Assembly: GCA_039714075.1 (NCBI GenBank)
Contig: JBDLKA010000020.1
Coordinates: 1-45,819 of the forward strand
Direction of reading: 5' to 3'
Length of the DNA: 45,819 nt
From: Candidatus Krumholzibacteriota bacterium
Lineage (GTDB): Bacteria > Krumholzibacteriota > Krumholzibacteriia > LZORAL124-64-63
Under the pieces are notes generated by a model. It ran no database searches. It saw nothing but the letters and a program-made list of their open reading frames with translations, and was not told the DNA's origin. Made by a program: the position numbers and the translations under genes. This document shows positions 4,771-28,610 of the stretch, in pieces; the stretch's first letter is position 1, and each line of letters starts with the position of its first letter.

Positions 4771-5979
4771 ATGCGCCCTGACAACCCATTGAAAAGGCTG
4801 GTGCTGCTGAGCCTCCTGGCCGCCTTCGTGTTCGGCGTGACCGGCGCGGCCGTGGCCGCGGAACCGGCCAACTTCACCGAAGCGCTGGCCCAGGCCGCCG
4901 CCGAAGACAAGGTCCTGGTCGTCGACTTCTACACCGATTGGTGACCCGGCTGCAAGGTGTTCGCCCGTGAGGTGAACGAAAACGCCGCCATGATCGCCGC
5001 CCTCGACGGAGCCCTCCTGTGGAAGGTCGACTGCGAAAAAGGTGAAGGCATCGAGATCGCCAAGAAATACGAAATTCGCGGCTACCCCACCTACATCGCC
5101 CTGAACGGCGCCGGTGAAATCACCGATCGCTGGATCGGCTACGAGGGCGCCGAAAAATGGTCCGCCGCCGTGGTGGCCGCCAAGGCCGACCGGCGAACCA
5201 TCGTAGAGAAGAAAGCCGCTTTCGAGGCCGAGCCGACCCCGGAACTGGCCAAGGCCCTGGCCAACGACGCCGCCACCGGTTCCCAGTACAAGGCCGCCGT
5301 GGAGTATTACGGCAAGGCCCAGGAATTGGATCCGGACAACGCTTCGGAATACGGTGATCAGATCCTGATGAGCATGCTCTACGGATTGGAAGACGATTCC
5401 TTCACCCTGGATGAAGTGATCGCCAAGGCCCAGCTGTCCATGGAATCCGACCAGACACCTGCCGCGGGTAAACTGGAACTGGCCCTGATGATCAAGCATT
5501 TCGCCGGCCAGAAAGGCCAGGTCGAAAAGGCCGTTCCCTTCATCGAGGCCGCCTTCGCCGCCAGTGAAGGCAGCACCGATCCCGACGCGATCAAGTACCG
5601 GAACTACCTGGCCGTCGACCACGCCCTGCTGGTGGAAAAAGATACCGCCAAGGCCATGGATCTGTTCCGGGGCCGGATGCCTGAAGGCTGGCAGGAAGAC
5701 GCCGATCAGCTGAACAAGTTCGCCTGGTGGTGCTTCGAAAACGGGGTCAATCTTGAAGAGGCCCAGAAATATGCCCTCAAGGGTGTCGAACTGGCCGAAA
5801 CCGACGGCCAGCGGGCCAACATCCTGGACACGGCGGCCGAGATCTGCAACGCGCTGGGGAATTGCGACCAGGCGCTGGCGCATATCAAGCGGGCCATCGA
5901 ACTGAGTCCGGAACAGGAGTATCTGAAGGATCAGTTGGCGCGGTTCGAGAAGATCGTCGAGGAGAAGAAGGCCGGCTGA
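4771..5979 (+). CDS. Exported thioredoxin-fold + TPR protein with in-frame TGA (probable selenocysteine, W-U-P-G-C)
   Basis: ATG 4771 with GGAG RBS and a signal peptide. VLVVDFYTDW-TGA(4942-4944)-PGCK continues in frame into the 4957..5979 ORF, which has the cis-Pro motif IRGYPT and TPR-like helices. A hairpin lies just 3' of the TGA. Confidence 0.85.
4959..4977 (+). promoter_or_regulatory. Putative bacterial SECIS hairpin
   Basis: GTTCGCC-cgtga-GGTGAAC forms a 7-bp stem (one G-U) with a 5-nt loop, G at loop position 2. The loop starts 21 nt after the TGA. Confidence 0.6.
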
Positions 5980-6000
5980 TCTTCATAGTGTCCGAACAGA

Positions 6001-6027
6001 GAAAGGCCCCCCGGGGGGCCTTTCTTT
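6001..6027. terminator. Probable bidirectional intrinsic terminator
   Basis: GAAAGGCCCCCCGGGGGGCCTTTC is a perfect palindrome with A/T flanks, between convergent genes. Confidence 0.8.
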
Positions 6028-6049
6028 GTTGGTTCAAAAACCGCTGAAT

Positions 6050-7069
6050 CTATTCCCACCCCGCCAGCGAAGCCGAAACCCGCCAGTACCCGTGGTGCTT
6101 GTCGGCATCATCCGGATCCTTCTCCCGGATGTTCTCCACCTTCCAGGTCAGGGTGTGCTCCCCGGGCGTCAACCATTCACTCAGGTCAATAAACTCGGGA
6201 TCGGCCACATCCCCCGGACACCAGCCGCTCCGCGAATAGTCGCTGCTCCAGGATCCGTCCGACCACTTGGCGCAATACGGATTCACGGTCCGGAAATCCC
6301 CGCAGTCATCCCGCCAGGGGCGCCAGCGGTAAACCTCCACCCCGTCGACCAGCAGGACGTTGTCCTTGGTGATGAATTCGTCGGCGTCCCTGCCGTCGGT
6401 GCAGTGGCCCGTCGTGATCGCGGCGACCTCGACCCAGCGGGTGTGCTCGGGAATGGTCACCGTCGAAGTAACCTCAGGCTTCTCGGCGGTCAGCCCGCCA
6501 TCCGGGAACAGGGCCCCCGTCGCCCAGGCCGGCGGATTGGCCCCGCCCACGGCGTCAGGCGCGAACACCAGCTCGGCGTCGACCTTCCAGGCCGGGGAAA
6601 CCCAGGTGTCGATGAAAACCTCGAATTCACAGTGCCCGGTCAACAGCGGCGCCAGGTGGGTGATATCCACCTCGTGGCTGATCGCCCCGCCGTACGCCGT
6701 CATGAACCGCACCATTTCCACCGGTGCTGTGTCCGGCTTGACCAGCCGGATCCAACCCGCGCGATCCCAACGGTCGACCATGTTACGGATATCCTTGCGG
6801 ATGGGCCGCACCGCGAACCGCAACATCACCCGGCCGGGCATGCGCCCCGTCTCCATTTCCCGGTAGGTGGCCATGACCCGGCCCTTGTCCCGGGCCGAAG
6901 CGAAGGGGGAATCGTATTTCGTGGTGTCGTCGGGGGTGAAATGCACGGTCACATCGCGGAACACCGATACGATTTCAGGGTCGGGAGTCGGCACCCTGTC
7001 CCCGCAGCCGGCCACCACCAGCAGGACACAGGCCAATATCGCTGGACACGCCAGAATCTTCATGAACAT
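6050..7069 (-). CDS. Peptide-N-glycosidase F-like lipoprotein
   Basis: DRWDRAG, EMVRFMTAYG, VDITHLAPLL, TTGH, ADEF and SRSGWCPG resemble PNGase F N- and C-domain motifs. Lipobox VAGC. Confidence 0.75.
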   Translation of the reverse strand: MFMKILACPAILACVLLVVAGCGDRVPTPDPEIVSVFRDVTVHFTPDDTTKYDSPFASARDKGRVMATYREMETGRMPGRVMLRFAVRPIRKDIRNMVDRWDRAGWIRLVKPDTAPVEMVRFMTAYGGAISHEVDITHLAPLLTGHCEFEVFIDTWVSPAWKVDAELVFAPDAVGGANPPAWATGALFPDGGLTAEKPEVTSTVTIPEHTRWVEVAAITTGHCTDGRDADEFITKDNVLLVDGVEVYRWRPWRDDCGDFRTVNPYCAKWSDGSWSSDYSRSGWCPGDVADPEFIDLSEWLTPGEHTLTWKVENIREKDPDDADKHHGYWRVSASLAGWE

Positions 7070-7081
7070 CCCCCGTGATCG

Positions 7082-8374
7082 TTATTTGATGTAACCCAGC
7101 GAACGCAACTGCTTGCGAATCTCCTCGTCCACCCCGGGGTCGCGTTCCCCCTCGGGACCGACCGCGGGTCGTAGCGGCAAGTAGCTTTCCACCCGCTTGC
7201 CTTCCATCTTTTGCAGACGCTTCAATCCCGATTCCGTCGCTCCCTCGAGAAGGATTTTACCCGGCATGTCCTTGGCCGGGGGCAATCCCATCAGGGCCAG
7301 AAAGGTCGGGCAGATGTCCAGCAGCTCCAGGTGGCCGAACTGCCGGCCCGCCTCGTACAGCGGGCTGCGCACCAGGAAGATCCCCCACTCGCTGTGCTCA
7401 TGCGTACCCTTTTGCCCCGACGAGCGCGGTCCGTAGAACCCGTGGTCCGACAACACCACCGTTTGGCGGTCCGCCGGGAACCAGCCCAGCACCTCGCCCA
7501 TGACCTCGTCCGACCAGTCGTAGTACCGCGTCACCACATCCTTGAAGACGGCGACTTTTTCCGGATCGAGCCGGGCACTGACCTTTTCCGGCTTCAGGAA
7601 ATCGTAGAAATGGTGGCTGATCATGTCGGGACCGCGCAGGTAGAAGAAGAAGAGATCGAAATCGCCGGTCTCGGCAAGCATGCGCGACACGGCCAGGTAA
7701 CCCAAATCGGCGGCCAGGATGTCCCGCAGCTTGTCCATGTCACGGGGAAATTTTTCTTCAACGGCCGCCAGGTCGTCGGTATTGAGGAACCGCAGCAACG
7801 TTTCGTCGGACAGCCCATCCGGATCGACCCTCAGGGCCACCACCGCGTCGGTCAGGGAATCGGGATGGACCAGGTTGGCCAGGGGCCGGTCGCGCCCGCG
7901 GCCATAGGGCAGATAATCGCTGACCATCACCCCGTCGATGGGCCGGGTGGGGTAGGTGGTCCACATGCCGGCCACCGCCGTGGACATGCCGGCCGCGCCG
8001 ATCATGTCCCACAGGGCCGGGGCGTACCAGGCACTGCCGGTGACGGGTTTCTGGTCGGACCCCTTGACGAAATTGTTGACGCCGTGCACCTCGGGCCGCA
8101 CGCCGGTCAGGATGCTGGCCCACAGGAGGGGCGATTTTTCCAGGGGGTAGAAGGTTTTCATGCGCCCGTGGCTGGACTGCGCCATGAAGGCTTTCAGATG
8201 GGGCAACCTTCCGTCGTCCATCATGGGTTCCAGCAGGCGCCAGTCGGCCGAATCGATGCCGATGACCAGCAGTTTGCGGGCCTCCGGATCGGGGGCCTGC
8301 TCCTGGCCGCCGCAGCCTGACAACAATATCGAAAGTGAAACCAGCAAAAAAAGGAATCGGCCGTGATGAACCAT
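7082..8374 (-). CDS. Alkaline-phosphatase-superfamily (type I phosphodiesterase/nucleotide pyrophosphatase-like) lipoprotein, AlkP-3
   Basis: IGIDSADW, KSPLLWASILTG, GPDMISH, SDHGF, HEH; C-terminal EEIRKQLRSLGYIK; lipobox LSGC. The start could alternatively be 8389. Confidence 0.85.
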   Translation of the reverse strand: MVHHGRFLFLLVSLSILLSGCGGQEQAPDPEARKLLVIGIDSADWRLLEPMMDDGRLPHLKAFMAQSSHGRMKTFYPLEKSPLLWASILTGVRPEVHGVNNFVKGSDQKPVTGSAWYAPALWDMIGAAGMSTAVAGMWTTYPTRPIDGVMVSDYLPYGRGRDRPLANLVHPDSLTDAVVALRVDPDGLSDETLLRFLNTDDLAAVEEKFPRDMDKLRDILAADLGYLAVSRMLAETGDFDLFFFYLRGPDMISHHFYDFLKPEKVSARLDPEKVAVFKDVVTRYYDWSDEVMGEVLGWFPADRQTVVLSDHGFYGPRSSGQKGTHEHSEWGIFLVRSPLYEAGRQFGHLELLDICPTFLALMGLPPAKDMPGKILLEGATESGLKRLQKMEGKRVESYLPLRPAVGPEGERDPGVDEEIRKQLRSLGYIK

Positions 8375-8402
8375 CTTCGCCAAACGCATCCGGAAACTCC
8401 CG

Positions 8403-9224
8403 TCAGATCGAGACTCGCAGGGCATCCTTCATGACCAGTCCCGACAACAGGGAAAAGACCATGAAGGCCACCAGCCAGTGCATTTCAATACCCAGGTAGC
8501 GGGTTTGCCTCGTCGGCAAACGCAGGGTCAATTCGTCCAGGGAACCGTCCCGGTCCAGAGGCGGCGCGCCCGGATAAAACACCCCGTGCAGCCAGTCTTT
8601 TCTACTGCTTTGGCCCAGGGGCGTCAATTTATTCCCGACCACGACTTCGCGGGTCGCAAGCTCGGTCGTTCCGTGCAGGATCCGCAGCAGATGGGTACCC
8701 CGGTCCTCGGCCCGCAGGCGCCAGGCCAAGGCGCCGGAAAACCCGTCCTTCACCGGACCCGCTTCCACCGTCAGGCCCGCAGGCGTTTCCAGGGTCACGT
8801 CCTCCAGGTTGATGTCCGTCTCCGCGGACAGCTTCAACGAAAGGACCGTGGTCTCCCCGGACTGGAAGGGCCGGTGGGCGAACCGGCTGTCCAGTTGTGC
8901 CAGGGTGAAGACCATGGGTACGGTCAGGACGACCAGGGCCGGCAGGGTCAGGCCGAGATACCTGAAATTGGCCCGGGCCAGGTCGCCCTGGATGCGGCCG
9001 ACCACCCGCAGGTGGTCCTGGTACAAACCCATTTCGTAGATGTGGCCGAACAGGCGGTTCCGTGTCGCGGTCAGGCGCGCCTGGGGCGTGACGGCCTTGA
9101 ACAGCAGCAGGGCCCAAGCTGCGGTTATCACCGACACGGCGAGCATCACCAGCAGGGGCGAGCCTCCCAAAAGGACGACCAGCAGGTCGAACAGGTTGCC
9201 GATGATGTCGGTGAGCCAGGTCAT
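8403..9224 (-). CDS. 3-TM membrane protein resembling EMC3/TMCO1/DUF106 (Oxa1 superfamily), with an inserted extracytoplasmic beta domain
   Basis: Amphipathic N-helix, TM1, a ~45-aa helical hairpin, TM2 with P-x6-P, a ~135-aa beta-rich insert and C-terminal TM HWLVAFMVFSLLSGLVMKDALRV. The CDS is well supported; the family call is by eye. Confidence 0.6.
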   Translation of the reverse strand: MTWLTDIIGNLFDLLVVLLGGSPLLVMLAVSVITAAWALLLFKAVTPQARLTATRNRLFGHIYEMGLYQDHLRVVGRIQGDLARANFRYLGLTLPALVVLTVPMVFTLAQLDSRFAHRPFQSGETTVLSLKLSAETDINLEDVTLETPAGLTVEAGPVKDGFSGALAWRLRAEDRGTHLLRILHGTTELATREVVVGNKLTPLGQSSRKDWLHGVFYPGAPPLDRDGSLDELTLRLPTRQTRYLGIEMHWLVAFMVFSLLSGLVMKDALRVSI

Positions 9225-9237
9225 GCCCGATCAGTCC

Positions 9238-9438
9238 TTAAGAGATGTAGCCCAGTCCCTGCATCCGCTTGCGGATTTCCTCTTCGCTGTCGCCGTCCTT
9301 TTCGAACCTGGCGATCTCGCGCTCGAGCACGTGGTGCACGAATTCCTCGGGCGAGGAGTAGCCGGCGATGCCGCTGAACTTCTTCACCTTCGCCAGGAGA
9401 TCCTTGTCGATCTTGATCTTGTCTCCGCCGCCGAACAT
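9238..9438 (-). CDS. 66-aa ribbon-helix-helix (CopG-like) protein with C-terminal LGYI tail
   Basis: Strong RBS (TAAGGAGG) before ATG 9438. Beta-helix-G-helix pattern KIKIDKDLLAKVKKFSGIAGYSSPEEFVHHVLEREI, then tail EEEIRKRMQGLGYIS. Confidence 0.8.
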   Translation of the reverse strand: MFGGGDKIKIDKDLLAKVKKFSGIAGYSSPEEFVHHVLEREIARFEKDGDSEEEIRKRMQGLGYIS

Positions 9439-9460
9439 GGTCGCCTCCTTATCGGTAATA

Positions 9461-11422
9461 TTACTTGTCCGCGCTGAACAGGTCGCCCCCGACCATCTCG
9501 GCCGGGGGTTCAAGGCCGAACAGGCGCAGGATGGTGGGCGCCATGTCCACCAGTGCGGGGTTTTCGCGCAACACCGGCCGGTTGGCCAGCAGGATCCCTG
9601 GAACTTCCGACGCGGCGATGCAGTGATCGCCGCTCCACTTGAGCATGTTGTCCTCGAACTGGACGTCGGGAATGCTGCCCAGCGCCGATTCGTTGCTGCC
9701 GCGCCAGCCCGCATAATACCCCACCACGATGTCCGGGCCGATCCGGGTCATATCCCCATGATAGACCTGATCCGAACGGTCGGCTGTCTTGATCGCCCGC
9801 CGTCCGTCCAGCGGATCGACCACCTCTTCCAGACGGTTTTTCAACTCGGCCAGCAACTGTTCCTGCTCGGCCCCGGGCTGGACGATGCCCTGCGTTTCCC
9901 GCCCGGCCAGGTTGATGTAAAGACCGTTGATCCCGATGGCGTAGGCCCGCGTGCGCCGCCAATCCACCCCGAACAGCATTTCCACGTTGCCGGGCTGCCG
10001 GCCCTCTTCCAGAACCAGGTAGCCGTTGTCGTAAAGCCAGGTGTTCAGGTGAAAGGCGCGGTTCCAGGGCGCGAAGCCGTGATCGCTCATGACCATGATC
10101 ACGGCGTCGGGACCGGCGCGCTCGGCCGCCAGACCCAGGGCCGCATCGAGTTCGGCGTAGACGTCCCGGATTCTCTGTTCGTGCACGTGGTCGCTGGTCC
10201 CGTAGGTGGGCGAATCATGATCCATGTTGCGCCACATCATGTGGCACACCTGGTCGGGCGAGTTGAAGTAGAAGAAAAGCAGGCCCTCGTCCAGGGCCGC
10301 GAACCGGTCCAGTTCGGCTTCCAACTGGTCGAGCCTTTCCTGCAGCACGAAATCGCTCTGCTGGACGTAACCGTCATCCGTGAAGAAATCGTTTTCCAGG
10401 GCGCTGGTATCGTCCGGTAGCCCCTGGGTGTAGAAAAGTCCCGTGTCCTCGGCGATTTCCCGGCTGTATTCCGGCGGCGTGCTGATGGGCATTTCCGGTT
10501 TCACCGGATCGATCTGCACCGGGGTGACGTAAAGCCGCAGATGGGGGCTGGTTTCCATCAGGTAGAACCGGCAGATGCCGCGCACGGTCTTGAGCAGCGG
10601 GATCATTTCGAATTCGACCGTGACCCAATCGCTCCACTCCCCGTCGGCCAGAACGATTTCGCTGTCACCGGCGGTGATCCAGGCCGAACCACTGCCCTGG
10701 TCGACGATGATTTCGACCGGCGACACGGCTTCGGGATCGCCCTCCCGCCAGGAATTCGGGGGGCCCATCAGGTCGGCGGTGCAGCGCCCGCCGTCCAGGT
10801 AGACCGAAACCACCTGGCCGCCGGCCAGGTCCCTCTCGACCGGCGGGTCGTCGGTGATCAGCGTGGAGATGCCGTAATTGCCGGTGATGTCCGGCGTGCC
10901 CATCCCGGACAGGCTGCGTGCTTCACATTCGACCGGAGGAAAATTCGAAGGCACCTTGAAGATGGTCGCGTCCACCCCGGCTTCGGTCAGCAGTTCCCAG
11001 AACGCCGTGCCCTGGCGCAGATTGCGGACCTCGCTGCCGCCGCGGGGCATCTTCCAGGAACCGATCCTCCAGAAGCGGGTGGGCCCCTTGGCCTCGCTGG
11101 CGCTGAAAAACGGCAGCATGGATTCGGGGTCGCGGTGGATGAAATCGAAAATGCCGTGCCCGCCCGCGTCCATGCCCGTGATGAAGTTGGACCAGGCCAC
11201 CGGTGACTGGGGCGGGGTCGAGGTGCCGAAGGGCGTCAACTGGCCGCCGCCGGCCAGGAACCTGTCGAAATTCGGCATGACACCCTGGGCGCGGAACTCA
11301 TCCAGCAGCTTGGGGTCCATGCCGTCGAAACCCAGGACCAGGACCCTGGGGCCGTCCCCCGCAGTCGCCCCGGTTGCGAACAGGGCCAGCAAAATCAGGA
11401 AAGTGTGGCGCAGGCGCCTCAT
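9461..11422 (-). CDS. Alkaline-phosphatase-superfamily phosphodiesterase-like protein with signal peptide, AlkP-2
   Basis: LGFDGMDP, PPQSPVAWSNFITG, HGIFDF, SPDQVCH, MSDHGF, WSGDH; Sec-type signal MRRLRHTFLILLALFATGATA. Confidence 0.88.
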   Translation of the reverse strand: MRRLRHTFLILLALFATGATAGDGPRVLVLGFDGMDPKLLDEFRAQGVMPNFDRFLAGGGQLTPFGTSTPPQSPVAWSNFITGMDAGGHGIFDFIHRDPESMLPFFSASEAKGPTRFWRIGSWKMPRGGSEVRNLRQGTAFWELLTEAGVDATIFKVPSNFPPVECEARSLSGMGTPDITGNYGISTLITDDPPVERDLAGGQVVSVYLDGGRCTADLMGPPNSWREGDPEAVSPVEIIVDQGSGSAWITAGDSEIVLADGEWSDWVTVEFEMIPLLKTVRGICRFYLMETSPHLRLYVTPVQIDPVKPEMPISTPPEYSREIAEDTGLFYTQGLPDDTSALENDFFTDDGYVQQSDFVLQERLDQLEAELDRFAALDEGLLFFYFNSPDQVCHMMWRNMDHDSPTYGTSDHVHEQRIRDVYAELDAALGLAAERAGPDAVIMVMSDHGFAPWNRAFHLNTWLYDNGYLVLEEGRQPGNVEMLFGVDWRRTRAYAIGINGLYINLAGRETQGIVQPGAEQEQLLAELKNRLEEVVDPLDGRRAIKTADRSDQVYHGDMTRIGPDIVVGYYAGWRGSNESALGSIPDVQFEDNMLKWSGDHCIAASEVPGILLANRPVLRENPALVDMAPTILRLFGLEPPAEMVGGDLFSADK

Positions 11423-13542
11423 GATGCGGCCTCCCGGTCGGCATCCTCATCATCGTTCAGGAAAATGCTCCGCCCGGTCATGTGTCCGGGCGCGGCCAGT
11501 CCCAGCAGATCCAGCACCGAGGGCGCCATGTCCACCAGGTTGGGTCTGGTCGAAGCGAAGGGCACCGTGGAGAACAGCACTCCGGGAACCTGCCGCGGGT
11601 CCATGCAGTGGTCGCCCGACCAGCTGCGCGTATTGTCGCTGATGATCGTACTGGTAACCGCGCCCACGGCCGCGTCCCAGTCGGTGCGGTAACCCGGTTT
11701 GTAGCCGACTATCGCGTCGGGACCGTTTTCGCGGTAGGGCCCGCGGTAGATTTCCTCGCAGGCCCACAGCTCGGTGATGGCCTCGCTGTCCTGGTCGGCA
11801 TCGGGCAGACCGCGCAGCTTGTCGTTTATCTCTTTCTTGAGGGCCAAAGCCTCGTCCGGCTCGACACAGCCGCCCTTTTCCCGCCCCTTGATATTCAGGT
11901 AATACCCGGCCAGTCCGTTGGTATACGCACGGGTGCGCGGCCAGTCGATTTCGCCGGCCTCGCATCGTTCCCCCGCGGGAATTTCAGGCAGCGGTCCCGC
12001 TTCGGGATCGGTCTTCAAAAACAGGTAACCGTTCTCGCGGAACCACGCATTCAGGTTCACGCCTCTTTTGAACTGCTTGAACCCGTGGTCCGAGACCACC
12101 AGCAAGGCGTCGTTCTTGCCCATCTTTTCCAGGGTCTCGCCCACCAGATCATCGGCCCTGCGGTACAGGTCGAAGACGGCGTCCTTGTGAACCTCGGTGT
12201 CCTTGTCCCGGTTGGCGGGATGGTCGGCGTCCAGATACCGGAAGAACATGTGCTGGATGCGGTCGGTGGCGTCGAAGACCACCGAAACCACGCCTTCGGG
12301 CTGGCGATCCAGCGCGTGGAAGAACTGGGCCTTGCGTTCCTCGTGGAAACGGTAGGCCTGGTCCAGGAAGGCCTGCTCGTCCAGGACCCGCTCGTTCAGG
12401 GCCCAGGTGTCTTCGGCCAATCCCAGGGTCGCGAACCGGCCCTGCAGCCTCGAGAGGGCCATGGCGTAATGGGGCGGATTGCTGATGGGCATCGCGGGCT
12501 GCCGCGGATCGATGTGCAGCGGACTGACATAGAAGGAGAAACCGGGTTCGAAACCCGTGATGCGGATCAGGCAGATGCCGTGGGCCTGTTGCGTCCTCTT
12601 GCCGAAGCCGACGGGAATCCATTCGGAGTATTCGTTCTCCCCGAGCGTGAACGTTTCGCCCGCCAGAATGAAGGTTGCCCTCTTCGCCCCCGGGTCCACC
12701 GTAACGGTGATGACCGCTTCCATACTCCCGGACCCATCCGGCTTGTCCGGCCCCAGCAACCGCGCGGTCCACTTTTGGTCGCCGGCCGGCTCGAGGTCCA
12801 TCCGCACGCCGCCGGTGGTGCGACCTTCCTCGTTCTTCAGCCCCGGCTCGGTGTAATGTGAGAAGGTGCCCTGGGTGCCGCGCAGGTCGGGCACGCACAT
12901 CGCCGACAGCATCTTACCGCCGAACTTGTCCGGCGGAAACGTGATGGGGATACGCAGGATCGAACTTTCGACCCCCGCCTCGGCGCAGGTCTTCCAGAAG
13001 GGTTTGCTGCGCTTGAGAAGCTCGAACTTGTGGCCGCCGCCGGGCAGGGTCACCGGGCCGATCTTCCGCGCGGGCTTCACGCTCAACCGGGTGGAGGAAA
13101 GAACCGGCAGGTGGGTCACCATGTCCCGGCTCAGAAAATCGAAAATGTTGTGACCGCTGGGATCGACACCGGTCGCGAACGTCGACCACCCCACCGGCGA
13201 CATGGCCGGCCAGGTGGTGCCCAGGGGGCGGAAGCCGCCTTCGTCCTTCAGTCGGATCAGGTTGGGCAGTTGTCCTTCGTCCATCATCTTTTTGCTGATG
13301 ACCGGATCGAGCCCGTCCAGGCCCAGAACCACGACCCGGCGGACCTTGGCGTTTTTCAGCCGCCCGCGACCGCGCAACGAGCGAATGACCACCCGGACCG
13401 GCCAGGCCAGCACCGCCAGGAAAGCCAGCAGGATACCAGCCAGGGCGAACAGGAAAGATCCGCCTAGCGCGAAGCCCGCGCCCGGGCCGATGTAGGCCGG
13501 AGCGAAGACAAATGCGGGCGCAATGATGAGAGCGGGCAACAT
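11419..13542 (-). CDS. Alkaline-phosphatase-superfamily phosphodiesterase-like protein with N-terminal YIGPG motif and TM anchor, AlkP-1
   Basis: LGLDGLDP, PAMSPVGWSTFATG, HNIFDF, TDRIQH, VSDHGF, WSGDH. ATGA overlap with the next gene; clear paralog of AlkP-2. Confidence 0.88.
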   Translation of the reverse strand: MLPALIIAPAFVFAPAYIGPGAGFALGGSFLFALAGILLAFLAVLAWPVRVVIRSLRGRGRLKNAKVRRVVVLGLDGLDPVISKKMMDEGQLPNLIRLKDEGGFRPLGTTWPAMSPVGWSTFATGVDPSGHNIFDFLSRDMVTHLPVLSSTRLSVKPARKIGPVTLPGGGHKFELLKRSKPFWKTCAEAGVESSILRIPITFPPDKFGGKMLSAMCVPDLRGTQGTFSHYTEPGLKNEEGRTTGGVRMDLEPAGDQKWTARLLGPDKPDGSGSMEAVITVTVDPGAKRATFILAGETFTLGENEYSEWIPVGFGKRTQQAHGICLIRITGFEPGFSFYVSPLHIDPRQPAMPISNPPHYAMALSRLQGRFATLGLAEDTWALNERVLDEQAFLDQAYRFHEERKAQFFHALDRQPEGVVSVVFDATDRIQHMFFRYLDADHPANRDKDTEVHKDAVFDLYRRADDLVGETLEKMGKNDALLVVSDHGFKQFKRGVNLNAWFRENGYLFLKTDPEAGPLPEIPAGERCEAGEIDWPRTRAYTNGLAGYYLNIKGREKGGCVEPDEALALKKEINDKLRGLPDADQDSEAITELWACEEIYRGPYRENGPDAIVGYKPGYRTDWDAAVGAVTSTIISDNTRSWSGDHCMDPRQVPGVLFSTVPFASTRPNLVDMAPSVLDLLGLAAPGHMTGRSIFLNDDEDADREAAS

Positions 13543-13668
13543 GGCGTGAAGATGCGGCTTTCTGGTCGGTCAGGTATTTACAGGGCAACAGTGTTAAAGA
13601 GCCGGTCTGAACGTAATCAAGCGACCGGATCGGGGCAACCCGATTACCGGTCACCGGGTTCCCGAATT

Positions 13669-13687
13669 GATAATGATAACATATTCA
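13669..13687. promoter_or_regulatory. Fur-box-like AT-rich site upstream of the AlkP operon
   Basis: GATAATGATAACATATTCA matches the first 11 nt of the Fur consensus GATAATGATAATCATTATC; the right half is degenerate. Confidence 0.3.
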
Positions 13688-13801
13688 TGGGCTGTAGGGG
13701 CCTATTGAGGACCTGCGGGTTGGAGACGTACAGGAGCGCCCTTTGACGGTTCGGCTGAGCCGGTGCAGGGCCCCCCGGGGGGCCCTCATGACCGGGGTCT
13801 G

Positions 13802-13834
13802 AAAAAGCGGCCCCGAGCATTTGCCCGGAGCCGC
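13802..13834 (-). terminator. Intrinsic terminator of the astacin gene
   Basis: Minus strand reads GCGGCTCCGGGC-aaat-GCTCGGGGCCGC-TTTTT. Confidence 0.75.
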
Positions 13835-13860
13835 CTGCCAAGATTGGACCGCTCCTCAAA

Positions 13861-16026
13861 TCATTTGAGAAGAACCAACTTCTGAGTTGACCGGGCCTTC
13901 CCGTCCGTCAACAGGCTCAGGTAAACGCCGGCAGCCACCGGCATGCCTTTCCGGTCCCGTCCGTCCCAGACGACCTCGTAGGGACCCGGCGCCATGGCTT
14001 CATTGCGCAGTTCCCTGACCAGGTTGCCCCGGTAGTCGTAGATCCGCAGGGTGACCAGCGAGGTCTCGCCCACGTTGAAGCGGATCCTGGTCAGCGGGTT
14101 GAAGGGATTCGGATGGACGGAAGTGATTTCCGTCCGGAGCGCGGACCCTCCACCCGTGGGAAGATCGGGATTGTTCCCACCGTCGAATTCCGAATTCAGG
14201 CCCACCGGCACGATGAAGGTCTTGCCGAGAACCCGGATGTCCGGTACGAGGTAGTCGACCTCACCGGCCCGGTAATGCAGACCCAGCGTGCCGCCGGTGA
14301 CGGTTTCGACCTCGATGCTCTCGGCCCCGTCGTTGATCGGGGTCGGGAAATCGATGAAACGCGCCACGGCCTTCATCGAATAATGAACTACCAGATCCTG
14401 CACCCCGTTGCGGTCCATGTCGATCAACCGGCTGGACAGGGGCCGCAGGCATACTTCGGTGTTGCCGACGTACGCATGGTAGGGATCGATGGTGGTCGCA
14501 TCGACGTCAACCGACGGGACAACCAGGGCAAAGGTCCTGGCCGAGGTATCCACATCCGAACCGTCGGGCAGGAATCCCGAGAAGGCCAGTGCGGTCCCGG
14601 ACTGGTCGTGCGGCACGGTGACAAATACTTCACCGATTGTCTGGTTGCCCGAGAAATCGGTCGCCGAGTAGGTCAGGGTATAATAGCGGCCGTCGCCGCC
14701 GCCCAGCCTTTCGGACCGCAGCTGGATGGTGAAGTCGTCGGTGATCATGATGTCCGGCGAAGTGTGTCCGTCGCCGAGTCCGTCGTCGGGTTCGTTGCTG
14801 ACGACGCTGACCAGGGCGATCGCCGGGTCGTCGTCGCAGTTGTCCTCGGAGGTCACCGTGACCAGGATGTCGACCATCTTGTGATTGGGCGGCCACAGGA
14901 CGTTCCGGTTCAGGTCAATGGTCATGGTGGGCGGAGTGACGTCGATGACGGTTACCGTCGCGTCGCAGGACGACGTCTCCCCGCATTCGTCGGTGATGGT
15001 CAGGGTCACGGTGTGGTTCCCGACCTCACACACCTCGACCGACTGTTCGCAGTCGACGGGCATGCCGTCCAACTCGGTGATGCAGAGGGACACGACATCG
15101 CCCGCTCCATCAGGATCGTAGGACCCGTCGTCGATGTCCGCCACGGTGACCTGGATGCAGCAATCCCCGTCCGCTTCATCAATGAAGGGCCGGCACATGG
15201 CCACCGGAACGTGATTCAGGGTGGGGCTGTAACGGGCCGCCATGCCCGCCTTGTCCCGGACGCTCAGGTATTCACGCTGGCCGATCCTGTCCTGCCATTC
15301 GCCCGCCCAGGGCTCCAGGACGGTGATGGTCCGGCAGTTGGCCAGATCGGCACTGCAATCGGCACAGATGTTGAAGGCGCATTGGGGATAGTGCATCACG
15401 GAATCGAAATCGTAGTCGCCGTAGTTGTCGGAGCTTCCTTCGATGTCGAAATTGTGGTCGCAGGGATCACCGCTGCAGCAGTCCTGGCAGACCCGGTCCA
15501 GGTGCACCTGGACAAAGGAGTCCCGGTCGCTGCGGGACTGCTCGTGGATCAGGCCCAGGGCATGGCCTATTTCATGTGAGATGGTGAAGATGCGGTTCCA
15601 GCTGACGATGCTCATTTCCTGCTCGCCGCCGGTCATGCCCACTTCCGACCAGTTGCCCGAGCCGGTGAAGACAAAGATGTAATCGCCGTCTCCCTCCCCC
15701 TCGATGAACTGAAGGTCGGCGGCGCAGGTCCAGTGGAAGGCCCCCAGACGCCAGTTGTCCCGCTGGGCGGCGGTCACTCCGCCGTCGAACGTGTAGTACA
15801 CGATGCCGTCGGTCCACCTGTCGCCGACGAACCCGCTTTTCTCCAGGTTGGACACCTTGAATTTCATATCGTCGATCATCAAGTAGGTTTGACCGGGCGG
15901 CAGGGTTTTCAATAAATCGATCTGATCGGGTGAAAGTGCTTTAGGTTGTTCAGGCAGGAATGTGGATGACGAGGCCGCACCGCTCCAGAGCAGCAGGACC
16001 CCCATGAGAATCAGTATTCGTTTCAT
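13861..16026 (-). CDS. Secreted astacin-family (M12A) zinc metallopeptidase with Ig/HYR-like modules and C-terminal FlgD-Ig (T9SS-like) domain
   Basis: HEIGHALGLIHEQSRSDRD zinc motif, YDFDSVMHY Met-turn, LWPPNHKM module, PNPFNP...WDGRD...GVY...KLVLLK C-terminal domain, signal peptide. Confidence 0.9.
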   Translation of the reverse strand: MKRILILMGVLLLWSGAASSSTFLPEQPKALSPDQIDLLKTLPPGQTYLMIDDMKFKVSNLEKSGFVGDRWTDGIVYYTFDGGVTAAQRDNWRLGAFHWTCAADLQFIEGEGDGDYIFVFTGSGNWSEVGMTGGEQEMSIVSWNRIFTISHEIGHALGLIHEQSRSDRDSFVQVHLDRVCQDCCSGDPCDHNFDIEGSSDNYGDYDFDSVMHYPQCAFNICADCSADLANCRTITVLEPWAGEWQDRIGQREYLSVRDKAGMAARYSPTLNHVPVAMCRPFIDEADGDCCIQVTVADIDDGSYDPDGAGDVVSLCITELDGMPVDCEQSVEVCEVGNHTVTLTITDECGETSSCDATVTVIDVTPPTMTIDLNRNVLWPPNHKMVDILVTVTSEDNCDDDPAIALVSVVSNEPDDGLGDGHTSPDIMITDDFTIQLRSERLGGGDGRYYTLTYSATDFSGNQTIGEVFVTVPHDQSGTALAFSGFLPDGSDVDTSARTFALVVPSVDVDATTIDPYHAYVGNTEVCLRPLSSRLIDMDRNGVQDLVVHYSMKAVARFIDFPTPINDGAESIEVETVTGGTLGLHYRAGEVDYLVPDIRVLGKTFIVPVGLNSEFDGGNNPDLPTGGGSALRTEITSVHPNPFNPLTRIRFNVGETSLVTLRIYDYRGNLVRELRNEAMAPGPYEVVWDGRDRKGMPVAAGVYLSLLTDGKARSTQKLVLLK

Positions 16027-16476: not shown

Positions 16477-17709
16477 CTACTTGCCCGCGTCCGCTTTCAT
16501 ATGGCCCGCCAGCTCACGGATCTCGGTCAGATCCTTCTTGAGCTTGGCGTACCCGTACCAGGTGGCGTAGTCGGGATTCATGTGGAACGTGCCCTGGAAC
16601 GCCTTCATCCGGTGGTCCATGAACATCTCGTAGAGAACCTGCTCGATCTTGGTGTCCACCTCGTAGAAGGCCAGCAGGTCGGGATATTCCGCTCCCGGGC
16701 GCTCCTCGTAGGAAATGATGCCTTCCCGGTAGAGATCGGCCACGATCTCGATGGCCTCGGCGAAGATCTTGTCGATCTCCTTGACCATGAGGTCGGCGTT
16801 CTTGAAGTTCTCGGCCACGAAATTCGGCGTGTGGCATTCTTTACAGATGGTGACGAAGCGGGCCCGCTCGGCGTCGAAACTTTCCTTGTCCAGGCGGGCG
16901 ACCTTGCCGGCCTTGACCACGTCCAGGCGGCCCGTGGGCTGCCCCGCGGGGTCGAGTACGCCGAGAGCCTTGAGGATGGAAACTCGATAGCCCATCCACT
17001 CCTCGTCCTCTTCGGGCAGACGCACGGCCAGGAAACCCCAGGCCGAGTAGACGCGGTGATCGCCGTCGGCCATGTGACAGTCCTGGCAGGTCGGGGCGCG
17101 GGCGGTGTCGCCCTCTTCACCCAGGGCGCGGTTCATCAGGTAGGTCACGCCGTGCTTGGAGCTGGACCACATCTCCCACTGGGGATGGTCGAAGCCCATG
17201 TGGCAGGTCTGGCAGGCTTCCGGTTCCTTGGCTTCGGCCTTGCTGAAGGCGTGGCGCGTGTGGCAGTTCTGGCAATCCATGCCGTACCGGTAATACGATC
17301 GCTCATCACGAACCGTCTGGTCGGTGACACCCTGGCTGTGGCACCCGCCGCAACCCTTCTGACCCGAAATGAAGGGGTCGGGCTGGCCGTGGGTGTGGGG
17401 CATCGCTTCCATGGCGACCCGGCCGAGGGCGTGTTTGCCGTCGAGGTACTGGGTGGCCTGGTCCTCGTGGCATTCGGCGCAGGTTTCAATGGTCGGCAGC
17501 ACGGCCTTGTCCACATCGTCGTTGCCCTTGTGGCTGTCGCCGTGGCAACCGGTGCAGTCCATCTCTTCGGACATGACGCCACGATTGAAATCCGCCACCA
17601 GGTTGGGGGTGATCTTGGCGTGGCACTCCTCGCAATCCGAAGGTACGGCCAGAGCGGCTCCGCCGAGAACGATCATACCCAACATCACCATCATCGTTAG
17701 CCGGAACAT
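16477..17709 (-). CDS. Octaheme c-type cytochrome, hydroxylamine oxidoreductase (HAO)-like family
   Basis: Eight CxxCH motifs (CEECH, CTGCH, CAECH, CGGCH, CQNCH, CQTCH, CQDCH, CKECH); CHTRHAFS, CHMGFDHPQWE, SSKHG, FHMNPDY; signal peptide. Confidence 0.88.
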   Translation of the reverse strand: MFRLTMMVMLGMIVLGGAALAVPSDCEECHAKITPNLVADFNRGVMSEEMDCTGCHGDSHKGNDDVDKAVLPTIETCAECHEDQATQYLDGKHALGRVAMEAMPHTHGQPDPFISGQKGCGGCHSQGVTDQTVRDERSYYRYGMDCQNCHTRHAFSKAEAKEPEACQTCHMGFDHPQWEMWSSSKHGVTYLMNRALGEEGDTARAPTCQDCHMADGDHRVYSAWGFLAVRLPEEDEEWMGYRVSILKALGVLDPAGQPTGRLDVVKAGKVARLDKESFDAERARFVTICKECHTPNFVAENFKNADLMVKEIDKIFAEAIEIVADLYREGIISYEERPGAEYPDLLAFYEVDTKIEQVLYEMFMDHRMKAFQGTFHMNPDYATWYGYAKLKKDLTEIRELAGHMKADAGK

Positions 17710-21620: not shown

Positions 21621-21965
21621 TCACAAAATCCTGGGCAGGAAAACCAATGCTCCCACTACCGCCGCGGCCAGCGCCGCGACCAGCACCGCGCCGGCCAGGA
21701 TGTCCTTGACCAGACCATAGCGGGGATCATGGTCCGGGCTCAGGATATCGACCAGTTTTTCCCCCGCGGTATTGACCAGTTCCAGACCCAGGACCAGGCC
21801 CATGGACAGGCTTACCAGACACCATTGCTCGCCCGAAATATCCAGGGTGAACCCCAGCAGGATCACCACCGCGGCGACGGCCAGCATGACCCGGAAATTT
21901 CGACCCCGGGCACCCGCGGCCAGGCCTTTCCAGGCGTAGACGAACCCCTTCAGAAAACCAGTCAT
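21621..21965 (-). CDS. dgkA: Prokaryotic diacylglycerol/undecaprenol kinase family
   Basis: FVYAWKGL, NFR, ELVNTAGE..VD and KDILAGAV motifs; 3 TM. Confidence 0.88.
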   Translation of the reverse strand: MTGFLKGFVYAWKGLAAGARGRNFRVMLAVAAVVILLGFTLDISGEQWCLVSLSMGLVLGLELVNTAGEKLVDILSPDHDPRYGLVKDILAGAVLVAALAAAVVGALVFLPRIL

Positions 21966-25522: not shown

Positions 25523-25523
25523 C

Positions 25524-28500: not shown

Positions 28501-28610
28501 GCTCCGGTCAGGTTTCCGGTTCCCGTTCCGGGAAGGTCAGCCGGCAGGTCCGCGGCCAGACGGCGCAAAAGATTGTCTGAAAAGGGAATGTGGCAAATCC
28601 GCGGGGGCAT
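25524..28610 (-). CDS. addB: AddB-type inactive-helicase/PD-(D/E)XK nuclease with 4-Cys Fe-S staple
   Basis: LPSSRA N-terminal motif, PSPFV, ECPYRF, GTVDRID, IDYKTG, CEFCELRGAC; adjacent to addA. Confidence 0.85.
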   Translation of the reverse strand: MPPRICHIPFSDNLLRRLAADLPADLPGTGTGNLTGALVILPSSRACRTLQHELLDESGRDTLLLPRIMTVTQWADEMAAGLGLTAADLPDDRVRPLILARKLMTLPWLRDNRESAPGLAAEFIGLFDEIRLHRRELLLLDPRGSDRVLEMSATAEAEIIAGDLRRIHEVWGHYRRLVPRDSVDRLADLAQALAAGGVPGQAPDLVAVAGFGRIDPVRAELLRAALDHGGDSRLYLPAATSRLSRLFQATWSPDGLGTDPLAPARRTEFLLTGQAPEVVTEQDIPTLKERLDALNTEGLPEGRPAFMPCGDTEAESRLAAHHVAEILSRSGEHGPSIAVAVGDPKLAARITAQLRDAGIDSDNTHGQALSSLPAGLLLRFMLRAALTDLRPEPLLEVLTHPYVQLPVAEGSHGTWTLRLERMFRRNQGPPGGLAGLRRQAADRDQSALNIFRKQGQGMVEFVEAVAGAFAPLLEMRGSRARNWDDLTDAVTKVWTALAPDHPLGEKMDRPDVTAAARLLDTLRADATLLPQVDLADFTADLGQLLSGENVPPHRARNLPVLVTGLVEARLESYDHLIIAGLRDGVFPARPPRPLLLGGGIRDRLDLPGWRDALSRDAELFLRLLHNAPEVLLTWTTEEEGQPVLPSPFVSRLQLALQPELPTEPDAVLWRREEVPWPQLETATADFLEEDPAPPALAKVRHLTRLSWSALRQWRECPYRFLLERGFALRKEEEVQEEFGRLEYGSLVHEALADFLAPDGPGYAALAGGDRTGAEEVLTATAREKFAPGANDLPLRHLWLDSFLRSVPPVIAHEMDRFQEWRPVALEEQFEMPLADLAGWISREAEAVGWDPQLPDLSGHAADIVLRGTVDRIDRRQDGTGALCVIDYKTGRAPSARKVQTLDEMQVLLYAAAVEAGRMAVSGPVVEGFYYPVKEDKPGRPHKAHLDCADGEGRLLLLQGAARLVELAVSAGDPAGCFPLIPRETAGEGEASLPCEFCELRGACRLEERNLPPGTDRKLDKLVNSKDRF

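What the first reader, a model, noticed from the sequence alone, without database searches (positions are those of the whole stretch)
8403..9224. Bacterial protein with the architecture of ER/archaeal Oxa1-superfamily insertases (EMC3/TMCO1/DUF106)
Seen: amphipathic N-helix, then P-LLVMLAVSVITAAWALLLFKAVT (TM1), a helical hairpin starting PQARL, LPALVVLTVPMVFTL (TM2), a large beta-rich insert, and G-x3-WLVAFMVFSLLSGLVMKDALRV (TM3, ending in a K-x-L-x-V tail). Known: archaeal DUF106/Ylp1, TMCO1, EMC3 and Get1 share the 3-TM core with a cytosolic coiled coil after TM1 and a W-x3-Y/F-x3-S TM3, whereas canonical bacterial YidC has a 5-TM core. Inference: a minimal ER-type insertase homolog in a bacterium, placed in an enzyme operon rather than a ribosomal-protein operon. 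It may be a dedicated insertase or a repurposed membrane scaffold/conduit.
Basis: inference. Interest (0 to 1): 0.8.

Follow-up and report, generated by a model that had tools for sequence, protein, structure and literature searches.

The report
Archaeal-type insertase relative in bacteria
This 273-residue bacterial membrane protein is a distant relative of the archaeal and ER "YidC-like" insertases with an added periplasmic domain, and because it is always encoded beside two phosphatase-like enzymes and one tiny protein, it probably has a specialised job that is still unknown.

Summary
The ORF at 8403-9224 (- strand, 273 aa) is real and has the described anatomy: an N-terminal helix, TM1, a basic helical hairpin, TM2, a ~130-aa beta insert and TM3.

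It is not the housekeeping insertase, because the genome has a canonical YidC. The gene is the last member of a four-gene unit: a TM-anchored NPP-like enzyme, an exported NPP-like paralog, a 66-aa protein, then this protein. That unit was kept in 43 of 45 loci from Krumholzibacteriota, Eisenbacteria and Dadabacteria/Thermodesulfobacteriota.

The function is inferred only. My best guess is a dedicated membrane subunit or assembly factor of this enzyme module.

Earlier notes from this scan describe the same unit on other DNA. I found no paper on bacterial members.

The parts
8403..9224 (-). Gene for the 273-aa DUF106/Ylp1-like membrane protein (P0001)
   Evidence: Searches give the ORF. Searches give the homologs. 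link it to PF01956 and MJ0480. Searches give the model and the fold match.
9171..9221 (-). N-terminal helix, residues 2-18. By topology it is predicted to lie on the periplasmic side.
   Evidence: Helix 2-18 in the model. F12 is 73% and D13 is 68% conserved in the family. The region aligns to the start of MJ0480.
9090..9158 (-). TM1, residues 23-45, with conserved S31 (90%) and polar T34
8949..9089 (-). Basic cytoplasmic helical hairpin, residues 46-92. It includes Q48 (95%) and, in the close family, the near-invariant stretch GHIYEMGLYQD.
   Evidence: invariant columns; helices 48-67 and 72 onward; 8 K+R against 3 D+E.
8880..8948 (-). TM2, residues 93-115, with conserved P96, P103 and Q110
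8484..8879 (-). Insert of about 130 aa with an Ig-like/filamin-type beta sandwich, residues 116-247, predicted periplasmic. W168, R169 and P218 are nearly invariant.
8415..8483 (-). TM3, residues 248-270, with H249-W250-x3-F254-x3-S258 and K266
   Evidence: domain 2, aligns it to MJ0480 residues 173-197.
9238..9438 (-). 66-aa soluble protein with a conserved MFGG start and an invariant GLGYI C-terminal tail. Its gene ends 13 nt before the gene above starts.
   Evidence: 37 orthologs, 51-92% identical. (found in 69 of 121 genomes, the same families as the membrane protein). It has only a weak NikR N-terminal hit at E 0.027, so 'ribbon-helix-helix-like' is inference.
9461..11422 (-). 653-aa NPP-like alkaline-phosphatase-superfamily enzyme with an N-terminal signal-peptide-like leader, predicted periplasmic
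   Evidence: PF01663. Model pLDDT 88. The nearest structures are Xanthomonas NPP, ENPP1/3/5/6 and PhnA at 10-13% identity. Metal-ligand and nucleophile columns are invariant.
11419..13542 (-). 707-aa NPP-like paralog with a leader, the invariant AYIGPGAGFA motif, one TM helix and a polybasic stretch. Its catalytic domain is predicted cytoplasmic.
   Evidence: PF01663. N-termini of the orthologs. It overlaps the next gene by 4 nt.
7082..8425 (-). 447-aa PF01663 lipoprotein-like paralog (lipobox LSGC) directly downstream. It is a Krumholzibacteriota-specific addition to the unit.
   Evidence: It is present downstream in 28 of the 30 loci that have downstream DNA. It is absent at that position in L036, L037 and L040-L049.

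Best explanation
The protein is a divergent bacterial member of the DUF106/Ylp1 (EMC3/TMCO1/Get1-type) branch of the Oxa1 superfamily. It has the three-TM core, an N-out/C-in topology and a basic cytoplasmic hairpin between TM1 and TM2. An Ig-like periplasmic domain of about 130 aa is inserted between TM2 and TM3.

It is not the cell's general insertase. It is the membrane component of a conserved four-gene module:
- a membrane-anchored NPP-like enzyme whose catalytic domain faces the cytoplasm;
- an exported NPP-like paralog;
- a 66-aa soluble protein with a GLGYI tail;
- this protein.

My committed mechanism is inferred, at roughly 45% within this frame. The protein stays bound as an adaptor subunit. 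Its TM core holds the single TM anchor of the 707-aa enzyme, whose invariant AYIGPGAGFA segment sits at the periplasmic membrane face. Its Ig-like domain docks the periplasmic 653-aa enzyme. Its conserved hairpin contacts cytoplasmic partners. In this way the two enzymes are assembled on opposite faces of the inner membrane. A purely transient, dedicated insertase role for that anchor is the nearest variant, at about 20%.

Shown here: the homology, the fold, the topology prediction, the co-occurrence and the gene order. Inferred: every physical contact and any activity.
For: Homology:
- Profile A2 against PDB sequences finds only MJ0480 (E 2.5e-7, positions 8-118 against 9-123), plus TM3.
- P0134 alone finds MJ0480 at E 1.2e-7, and the next hit is at 0.45.
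- PF01956 is hit by 2 of 27 members and by 20 of 135 members. P0134 is above the curated cut-off.

Fold:
- YidC 3wo7_A is rank 10, and the Get1 cytosolic domain is at ranks 44 and 50.

Not housekeeping:
- A canonical YidC lies elsewhere in the genome (206 bits).
- The distribution in the phylum is patchy, with 70 of 121 genomes positive: f1 46/48, f5 12/12, f8 8/8, f2 0/9, f3 0/5, f6 0/8.

Module:
- The small gene and the 653-aa paralog lie upstream in 32 of 33 loci, 2 of 2 and 9 of 10. The two exceptions have no upstream DNA.
- This holds down to 26% identity of the membrane protein.
- The small protein is found in 69 of the 70 positive genomes and in 0 of the 51 negative ones.
- The enzyme pair follows the same pattern.

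Specific contacts are suggested by several features:
- W168, R169 and P218 in the insert are nearly invariant.
- The hairpin is strongly conserved.
- AYIGPGAGFA is invariant next to a variable leader.
Against: - P0001 and its 33 close relatives do not reach PF01956 themselves, so membership rests on intermediates.
- The tool does not print the identity of chain 8 of 7TUT.
- No conserved charged residue lines the TM segments, so a hydrophilic groove is not demonstrated.
- No fused forms were found that would prove physical association (which is weak evidence).
- Genome G033 carries two diverged 234-aa copies without the small protein or the enzyme pair, so the fold can work outside this module.
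- Related genomes are not independent, so the co-occurrence counts overstate the support.

Confidence: 0.6

Rival explanations
1. It is a dedicated but transient insertase. The protein catalyses insertion of the N-out single-span anchor of the 707-aa enzyme, or of other module proteins, and then lets go, as YidC, EMC and Get1 do with simple N-tail or tail-anchored substrates.
For: It has the Oxa1-superfamily fold and homology. The 707-aa paralog has a very short periplasmic N-tail followed by one TM and a polybasic stretch. From the passages of PMC5868721 read, that is the substrate class of this superfamily. The hairpin is basic, like the ribosome- or factor-binding coiled coils of the family.
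Against: The genome already has YidC. In Eisenbacteria and Dadabacteria the 707-aa orthologs carry a classical leader ending A-x-A before the invariant motif, so Sec and signal peptidase could suffice. A transient catalyst would not obviously need a conserved periplasmic Ig-like domain with invariant residues.
Confidence: 0.2
2. It is a lipid or substrate conduit. The membrane-thinning Oxa1-type groove moves a lipid-linked phosphoester substrate or product between the cytoplasmic and the periplasmic NPP-like enzyme, working like a scramblase.
For: The two catalytically intact paralogs are predicted on opposite faces of the membrane. A paper titled 'Lipid scrambling is a general feature of protein insertases' exists (PMC11047089; I saw only the listing and the start of the abstract). 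In other phyla the unit neighbours membrane-bound sulfatase-domain proteins (PF00884 after an N-terminal region of about 240 aa with no Pfam match), further PF01663 genes and an APS kinase.
Against: No substrate is known. Conserved polar residues in the TM helices are few and uncharged: S31, T34, Q110 and S258. Nothing here tests transport.
Confidence: 0.12
3. It is a second general-purpose insertase of archaeal type that works alongside YidC, and its operon position is incidental.
For: It is homologous to archaeal YidC-like proteins.
Against: It is not near secY or ribosomal genes, which is the archaeal context described in PMC5898192 (passages). It was not found in 51 of the 121 phylum genomes searched, including whole families of 95-100% complete genomes. 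It is gained and lost together with the enzyme pair and the small protein. Its gene order is fixed across phyla.
Confidence: 0.04
4. It is not an Oxa1-superfamily protein. It would be an unrelated three-TM protein whose resemblance comes from hydrophobic composition and a common helical arrangement.
For: There is no direct Pfam hit for P0001 or its close relatives. Profile A1 finds nothing in the PDB. Foldseek finds only Ig-like domains. Helical models can reach a middling Z by chance (note).
Against: Two independent sequence searches single out MJ0480 among 177,635 PDB sequences, with the next hits at E 0.45 and 1.9 and low bias. The match is collinear over the N-helix, TM1, hairpin, TM2 and TM3. 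PF01956 is by far the most frequent Pfam hit in the family, at 20 members against 9 for the next family. Three Oxa1-superfamily entries appear among the top 50 of 48,161 chains.
Confidence: 0.04

Closest known systems
MJ0480 / Ylp1 of Methanocaldococcus jannaschii (archaeal DUF106, Pfam PF01956, COG1422; PDB 5C8J)
   Same: The match is collinear over the N-terminal helix, TM1, the cytoplasmic hairpin and TM2 (profile 8-118 against chain 9-123), and over TM3 with W-x3-[FY]-x3-S. It shares the three-TM core, the conserved Q after TM1 and the tryptophan at the start of TM3. Lewis & Hegde describe a conserved interface tryptophan and a conserved polar residue in H1 for archaeal YidC (passages).
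   Different: This protein is bacterial. It has an Ig-like domain of about 130 aa between TM2 and TM3, where MJ0480 has a short loop. It is encoded in an enzyme operon rather than near secY and ribosomal genes (PMC5898192 passages). It coexists with a canonical YidC. It is too divergent for PF01956 to score it directly.
Eukaryotic ER members TMCO1, EMC3 and Get1
   Different: No partner of the EMC6, Get2 or C20orf24 type is evident. The protein has the periplasmic insert. There is no evidence of ribosome or Get3-like binding.
Bacterial YidC (PF02096), e.g. B. halodurans YidC2 (PDB 3WO7)
   Different: The core has three TMs rather than five. There is no sequence relation to the genome's own YidC (hhalign probability 2.3%). 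There is no conserved positive residue inside TM1 (family mean K+R in TM1 is 0.1), whereas YidC homologs are said to have a strictly conserved positive groove residue (abstract of PMC8920935 in the listing).

Membership tests
Oxa1 superfamily (architecture as defined by Anghel et al. 2017, PMC5868721; passages read) | Three-TM core | tested here: met
   The model and hydropathy give three hydrophobic helices at 23-45, 93-115 and 248-270. They superpose on a chain of 7TUT over model 17-273.
Oxa1 superfamily (architecture as defined by Anghel et al. 2017, PMC5868721; passages read) | N-out / C-in topology | tested here: met
   This is a prediction from the positive-inside rule only. The N-terminus has 0 K+R, the hairpin has 8 K+R against 3 D+E, and the C-terminus has 2 against 1. 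Family means agree. It is not an experimental result.
Oxa1 superfamily (architecture as defined by Anghel et al. 2017, PMC5868721; passages read) | Cytosolic coiled coil or helical hairpin between TM1 and TM2 | tested here: met
   Helices 48-67 and 72-92 precede TM2. They match the Get1 cytosolic domain and other coiled coils.
Oxa1 superfamily (architecture as defined by Anghel et al. 2017, PMC5868721; passages read) | Lipid-exposed hydrophilic groove | tested here: inconclusive
   Conserved polar residues S31, T34, Q110, S258 and K266 exist in or at the TM helices. I could not inspect coordinates, and no charged groove residue is conserved.
Oxa1 superfamily (architecture as defined by Anghel et al. 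2017, PMC5868721; passages read) | Membrane-protein insertion activity, or ribosome or targeting-factor binding | not testable with these tools
   This needs biochemistry.
Pfam PF01956 (EMC3_TMCO1 / DUF106) | Score at or above the gathering cut-off of 27.1 bits | tested here: not met
   P0001 has no hit at E<=1 or E<=10. None of the 34 close relatives hits. The HMM run over the genome misses this ORF. Distant family members do hit: P0134 at 28.6 bits, and 20 of 135 at E<=1. This sequence is therefore a homolog beyond the reach of the current model, not a scored member.
Pfam PF01956 (EMC3_TMCO1 / DUF106) | Significant sequence similarity to a founding member (MJ0480) | tested here: met
   The family profile scores E 2.5e-7. 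P0134 alone scores E 1.2e-7. P0134 matches the A1 profile at 7.6e-54 over its full length.
   W250 is 99%, F254 is 87% and S258 is 83% conserved. They align to W, Y and S of MJ0480 (domain 2, which is weak on its own at 4.1 bits).
Archaeal YidC orthologs (arCOG02673) | Gene neighbourhood with secY and ribosomal protein genes (PMC5898192; passages read) | tested here: not met
   The neighbours are PF01663 enzymes, a small protein and a PNGase F-like gene. The order is conserved in 43 of 45 loci.
Bacterial YidC/Oxa1/Alb3 (PF02096) | Match to PF02096 and a five-TM core | tested here: not met
   PF02096 finds only C14:36405-36983 in this genome. hhalign of A2 against that YidC gives probability 2.3%. 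There are three TM helices.

The most novel reading that the evidence does not exclude
The four-gene unit is a previously unrecognised machine that spans the inner membrane. A cytoplasm-facing and a periplasm-facing NPP-like phosphoesterase or transferase are coupled through a bacterial DUF106-type protein. The Oxa1-type groove of that protein has been repurposed from inserting proteins to passing a lipid-linked phosphoester or sulfoester intermediate across the inner membrane. This would be the first Oxa1-superfamily member whose native job is small-molecule or lipid transfer within an enzyme complex.
Probability: 0.12. Interest if true: 0.85.

Novelty: new variant of a known kind. Interest (0 to 1): 0.62.

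Why it matters
The papers I read treat DUF106/Ylp1-type three-TM insertases as an archaeal and eukaryotic lineage, and treat five-TM YidC as the bacterial one.

A large bacterial family of the archaeal type, with 2275 representatives at 50% identity, sits beside a normal YidC and is locked into an enzyme operon. This has two consequences:
- It changes the phyletic picture used to argue how Oxa1-superfamily proteins evolved.
- It offers a natural case of the fold being specialised for one client system.

The case is also tractable. There are four small-to-medium genes, they have clear orthologs, and the predicted localisations can be tested.

Tried and rejected
- Direct Pfam and NCBIfam scans of P0001 gave nothing.
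- Scanning 34 close relatives against Pfam at E<=10 gave no PF01956 hit.
- The PF01956 HMM run over the whole genome gave only an unrelated 13-bit hit on C6.
- The close-family profile A1 against PDB sequences gave 0 hits.
- Foldseek against the PDB, and its VIA second look, gave only Ig-like domains for the insert. They could not see the TM core.
- The protein atlas showed neighbours without Pfam, plus one cluster with PF01956 on 17% of members at score 0.86, which is a lead only. The N-terminal part against named clusters gave no usable hit.
- hhalign of A2 against the genome's YidC showed no relation.
- A search for longer, fused forms found none (weak evidence).
- Complex prediction of the membrane protein with the 66-aa protein gave no verdict, so it says nothing either way.
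I used single proteins and the genome search instead.
- A metagenome scan with P0294 found nothing.
- The promoter and terminator scan of 5800-14200 gave nothing above the shuffles.
- phmmer of both large enzymes and of the small protein against the PDB gave nothing meaningful.
- I could not obtain archaeal DUF106 sequences within the rules. Therefore no true profile-profile (HHpred-like) test against PF01956 and no joint phylogeny was run.
- I considered that the in-frame TGAs reported in orthologs of the 707-aa enzyme might be selenocysteine. I rejected this because those matches run past residue ~700, that is, through the terminal stop into the overlapping next gene.

Full report
**Observation**

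The window has an ORF at 8403..9224 on the - strand that encodes 273 aa (protein P0001). Two spacings were slightly miscounted: the sequence has G245-x4-W250 and K266-x2-L269-x-V271.

An AlphaFold2 model built on 34 relatives (mean pLDDT 86.1, pTM 0.75) shows:
- helix 2-18
- helix 23-45 (TM1)
- helices 48-67 and 72-115 (a hairpin running into TM2)
- strands between 125 and 234
- helix 250-268 (TM3)

Charge counts fit an N-out/C-in topology, with a cytoplasmic hairpin and a periplasmic insert:

| Segment | K+R | D+E |
|---|---|---|
| N-terminal 22 residues | 0 | 2 |
| Hairpin 43-92 | 8 | 3 |
| Insert | 16 | 18 |
| C-terminal 8 residues | 2 | 1 |

The window also encodes a TonB-dependent receptor, so the organism has an outer membrane and a periplasm.

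**The gene is real and belongs to a large family**

The word-indexed search found 170 proteins at E<=1e-3, almost all 265-277 aa long and aligned end to end. A profile of 34 of them, run against 1.84 billion cluster representatives, found 2275 proteins at E<=1e-3 and 544 at E<=1e-30. These again are about 270-285 aa and match over the full length.

Record titles and source names place members in several groups:
- Krumholzibacteriota, the window's own group
- Eisenbacteria
- Dadabacteria
- Thermodesulfobacteriota
- 'Deltaproteobacteria' MAGs

The protein atlas adds Acidobacteriota, Aminicenantota and Planctomycetota as the commonest labels of neighbouring clusters.

Across 135 diverse members the nearly invariant positions are S31 (TM1), Q48 (just after TM1), W168 and R169 (insert), P218 (insert) and W250 (start of TM3). 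F254 is 87%, S258 is 83%, Q110 is 88% and K266 is 73% conserved.

**Is it an Oxa1-superfamily (DUF106) protein?**

The direct tests fail:
- P0001 has no Pfam or NCBIfam hit.
- None of its 34 close relatives hits PF01956 even at E<=10.
- The PF01956 model run over the whole genome does not pick up this ORF.
- The close-family profile finds nothing among PDB sequences.

The wider family supplies the link:
- Of 27 distant members, 2 hit PF01956. One of them, P0134, scores 28.6 bits against a curated cut-off of 27.1, with residues 24-121 on model positions 15-117.
- Of 135 members, 20 hit PF01956 at E<=1, the best at 4.8e-8. It is the most frequent Pfam family by a wide margin.
- The 135-member profile, searched against 177,635 distinct PDB sequences, finds exactly one significant match. 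This is MJ0480 (PDB 5C8J), the archaeal DUF106/Ylp1 protein, at E 2.5e-7. Profile positions 8-118 align to chain residues 9-123. A second, weak stretch aligns TM3 (248-272 against 173-197) and places W-x3-F-x3-S on W-x3-Y-x3-S.
- P0134 alone finds MJ0480 at E 1.2e-7 by phmmer, with the next hit at E 0.45.
- P0134 is itself a full-length family member, at 7.6e-54 to the close-family profile.

The fold evidence agrees:
- Foldseek saw only the Ig-like insert.
- Get1 cytosolic domains appear at ranks 44 and 50.

Some sources' automatic annotation already labels a few relatives 'uncharacterized membrane protein (DUF106 family)': P0027, P0030 and P0070, P0271 and P0272, and P0315. This is the COG1422 name. 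PMC5898192 equates COG1422 with pfam01956.

**What differs from known members**

- There is no sequence relation to the genome's own YidC (hhalign probability 2.3%), and no conserved positive residue lies inside TM1.
- The genome has a canonical YidC on another contig (PF02096, 206 bits).
- The gene context is not the secY and ribosomal context that PMC5898192 describes for archaeal YidC.

**Surroundings**

On the - strand the genes run as follows:

| Gene | Coordinates | Junction with the next gene |
|---|---|---|
| 707-aa PF01663 protein | 13542-11419 | overlaps it by 4 nt |
| 653-aa PF01663 protein | 11422-9461 | gap of 22 nt |
| 66-aa protein | 9438-9238 | gap of 13 nt |
| This gene | 9224-8403 | overlaps it |
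| 447-aa PF01663 lipoprotein-like protein | 8425-7082 | gap of 12 nt |
| PNGase F-like protein | 7069-6050 | - |

The order large enzyme, second enzyme, small protein, membrane protein is kept widely:
- 32 of 33 Krumholzibacteriota-type loci. The exception has only 31 bases upstream. L011 has about 3 kb inserted before the membrane gene.
- 2 of 2 further loci, namely L036 from Eisenbacteria at 32% identity and L037 at 38%.
- 9 of 10 Dadabacteria/Thermodesulfobacteriota loci at about 26% identity. The exception starts at base 3. L045 has a sulfatase-domain gene inserted.

The 447-aa paralog follows in 28 of the 30 loci that have downstream DNA, but not in the other phyla.

Presence in a sample of 121 genomes of the phylum:

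| Feature | Genomes | f1 | f5 | f8 | f4 | f2 | f3 | f6 |
|---|---|---|---|---|---|---|---|---|
| Membrane protein | 70 | 46/48 | 12/12 | 8/8 | 2/25 | 0/9 | 0/5 | 0/8 |
| Small protein | 69 | 46/48 | 12/12 | 8/8 | 2/25 | 0/9 | 0/5 | 0/8 |

The same two f1 genomes lack both genes. The small protein is in no genome that lacks the membrane protein. The only mismatch is G033, discussed below. Close orthologs of the enzyme pair follow the same pattern. Weaker single paralogs at 32-39% identity occur in some negative genomes, namely f6 7/8, G032 and G065. In Eisenbacteria 9 of 10 genomes have the membrane protein. Related genomes are not independent, so these counts describe a unit inherited and lost together. 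They are not a statistical test.

**The partners**

- Both large paralogs keep the metal-ligand and nucleophile columns D33, S73, D390, H394, D447, H448, D599 and H600 in the numbering of the 653-aa protein.
- The 653-aa protein folds confidently (pLDDT 88). Its nearest solved structures are the NPP family (Xanthomonas NPP, ENPP1/3/5/6), phosphonoacetate hydrolase and PafA, at 10-13% identity. It also has an all-beta insertion of about 200 residues.
- The 653-aa protein starts with a signal-peptide-like leader, so I read it as periplasmic.
- The 707-aa orthologs have a variable leader. In Eisenbacteria and Dadabacteria this is a classical one ending A-x-A. Then come an invariant AYIGPGAGFA, one hydrophobic helix, a polybasic stretch and the enzyme domain. 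By the positive-inside rule the catalytic domain is cytoplasmic, and only about 9 invariant residues face the periplasm. This is inference.
- The 66-aa protein is very conserved, at 51-92% identity across three phyla. It has an MFGG start and an invariant GLGYI tail. Its only family hint is a weak NikR N-terminal match at E 0.027, so 'ribbon-helix-helix-like' is a guess.

**How it most likely works**

Shown here:
- The fold and ancestry are of an archaeal-type insertase.
- It has a periplasmic Ig-like domain and a conserved basic cytoplasmic hairpin.
- It is linked obligately to two NPP-like enzymes, predicted on opposite membrane faces, and to a small soluble protein.
- A separate YidC is present.

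Inferred, and my committed reading: it is a dedicated membrane subunit or assembly factor of this module. It holds the TM anchor of the 707-aa enzyme, docks the periplasmic enzyme through the Ig-like domain, and contacts cytoplasmic partners through the hairpin.

My odds are:

| Reading | Odds |
|---|---|
| Stable subunit | about 45% |
| Transient dedicated insertase | about 20% |
| Lipid or substrate conduit | about 12% |
| General insertase | about 4% |
| Not a homolog | about 4% |
| Something else | the rest |

The conduit reading is made conceivable by the report that insertases scramble lipids (PMC11047089; I saw only the listing and the start of the abstract). It also draws on the membrane-bound sulfatase-domain and APS-kinase neighbours in other phyla.

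The one binding test I could run, the membrane protein with the 66-aa protein, gave no verdict.

**Literature and novelty**

- Searches for DUF106 + bacteria + Oxa1 superfamily returned 5 papers.
- Ylp1/YidC/bacterial/DUF106 returned 13 papers.
- PF01956/COG1422/EMC3_TMCO1 returned 4 papers.

No paper returned by these searches is on bacterial members. That rests on titles and starts of abstracts for most of them, and on passages for the four below.

The passages I read describe DUF106 as archaeal and eukaryotic: PMC5868721, the bioRxiv version of Lewis & Hegde, PMC8887752 and PMC5898192. Lewis & Hegde state that they removed non-archaeal sequences, which they name as EMC3 and TMCO1, from PF01956. 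The library holds only open-access PMC papers and bioRxiv preprints, so absence there is not proof.

Earlier notes of this scan describe the same four-gene unit and the same MJ0480 link on other genomes. One of them claims at least ten phyla. These are AI notes, not independent evidence. My own tests agree with them for the three groups I examined.

I rate this a new variant of a known kind.

Noticed in passing
window 7082-7130 (-) and 9238-9290 (-): The 447-aa PF01663 lipoprotein-like protein and the 66-aa protein end in the same kind of tail, an acidic stretch followed by I-R-K-x3-x-L-G-Y-I-[KS]. One is predicted periplasmic and the other cytoplasmic. The two large paralogs lack this tail. 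The tail may be a motif that contacts the AlkP domain.
   Followed up: partly
window 13468-13497 (-): The motif AYIGPGAGFA lies between a variable leader and the single TM helix of the 707-aa enzyme. It is invariant in every ortholog whose N-terminus lies within the fetched DNA, across three phyla, whereas the leader varies freely.
   Followed up: partly
L038:283-987 (-) and L039:582-1286 (+) (genome G033): One Krumholzibacteriota genome has two copies of a diverged 234-aa version with a shorter insert. It has no small protein and no enzyme pair. By eye only, the neighbours look like sulfotransferase and APS-kinase genes. They were not scanned.
   Followed up: partly
L041:2274-4331, L045:223-2280 and 6975-8888, L036:1585-2187: In Dadabacteria/Thermodesulfobacteriota the unit is preceded by a 686-aa protein with a sulfatase domain (PF00884) after an N-terminal region of about 240 aa. 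In L045 it is also interrupted by a similar 638-aa protein. In the Eisenbacteria locus an APS kinase sits among extra PF01663 genes. This hints at envelope phospho- or sulfo-ester chemistry.
   Followed up: partly
genomes G011, G012, G029, G084, G088, G099, G114, G115: A second, weaker relative of the 66-aa protein (E about 1e-6 to 1e-7, ORFs of 78-101 aa) is present. In G011, G012, G029, G099 and G114 it lies about 9-10 kb from the module on the same contig. In G084, G088 and G115 it is on another contig.
   Followed up: no
window 6050-7069 (-): A PNGase F-like gene (PF09113 and PF09112) follows the unit by 12 nt. It is kept there in 6 close loci: L004-L007, L009 and L033.
   Followed up: partly
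window 13861-16026 (-) and 16477-17709 (-): Upstream on the same strand there is an astacin-family metalloprotease with a FlgD-Ig domain and a weak, sub-threshold match to a Por secretion tail. There is also a multihaem cytochrome c.
   Followed up: no
protein P0329: A 74-aa fragment in a 90%-identity cluster of this bacterial family is labelled 'Candidatus Undinarchaeales archaeon' by its source. It may be a binning error or an archaeal member. It was not checked.
   Followed up: no
window 21962-28610 (-): There is an AddAB-like pair: a 1186-aa UvrD-type helicase with a PD-(D/E)XK nuclease domain, and a 1028-aa PD-(D/E)XK protein.
   Followed up: no
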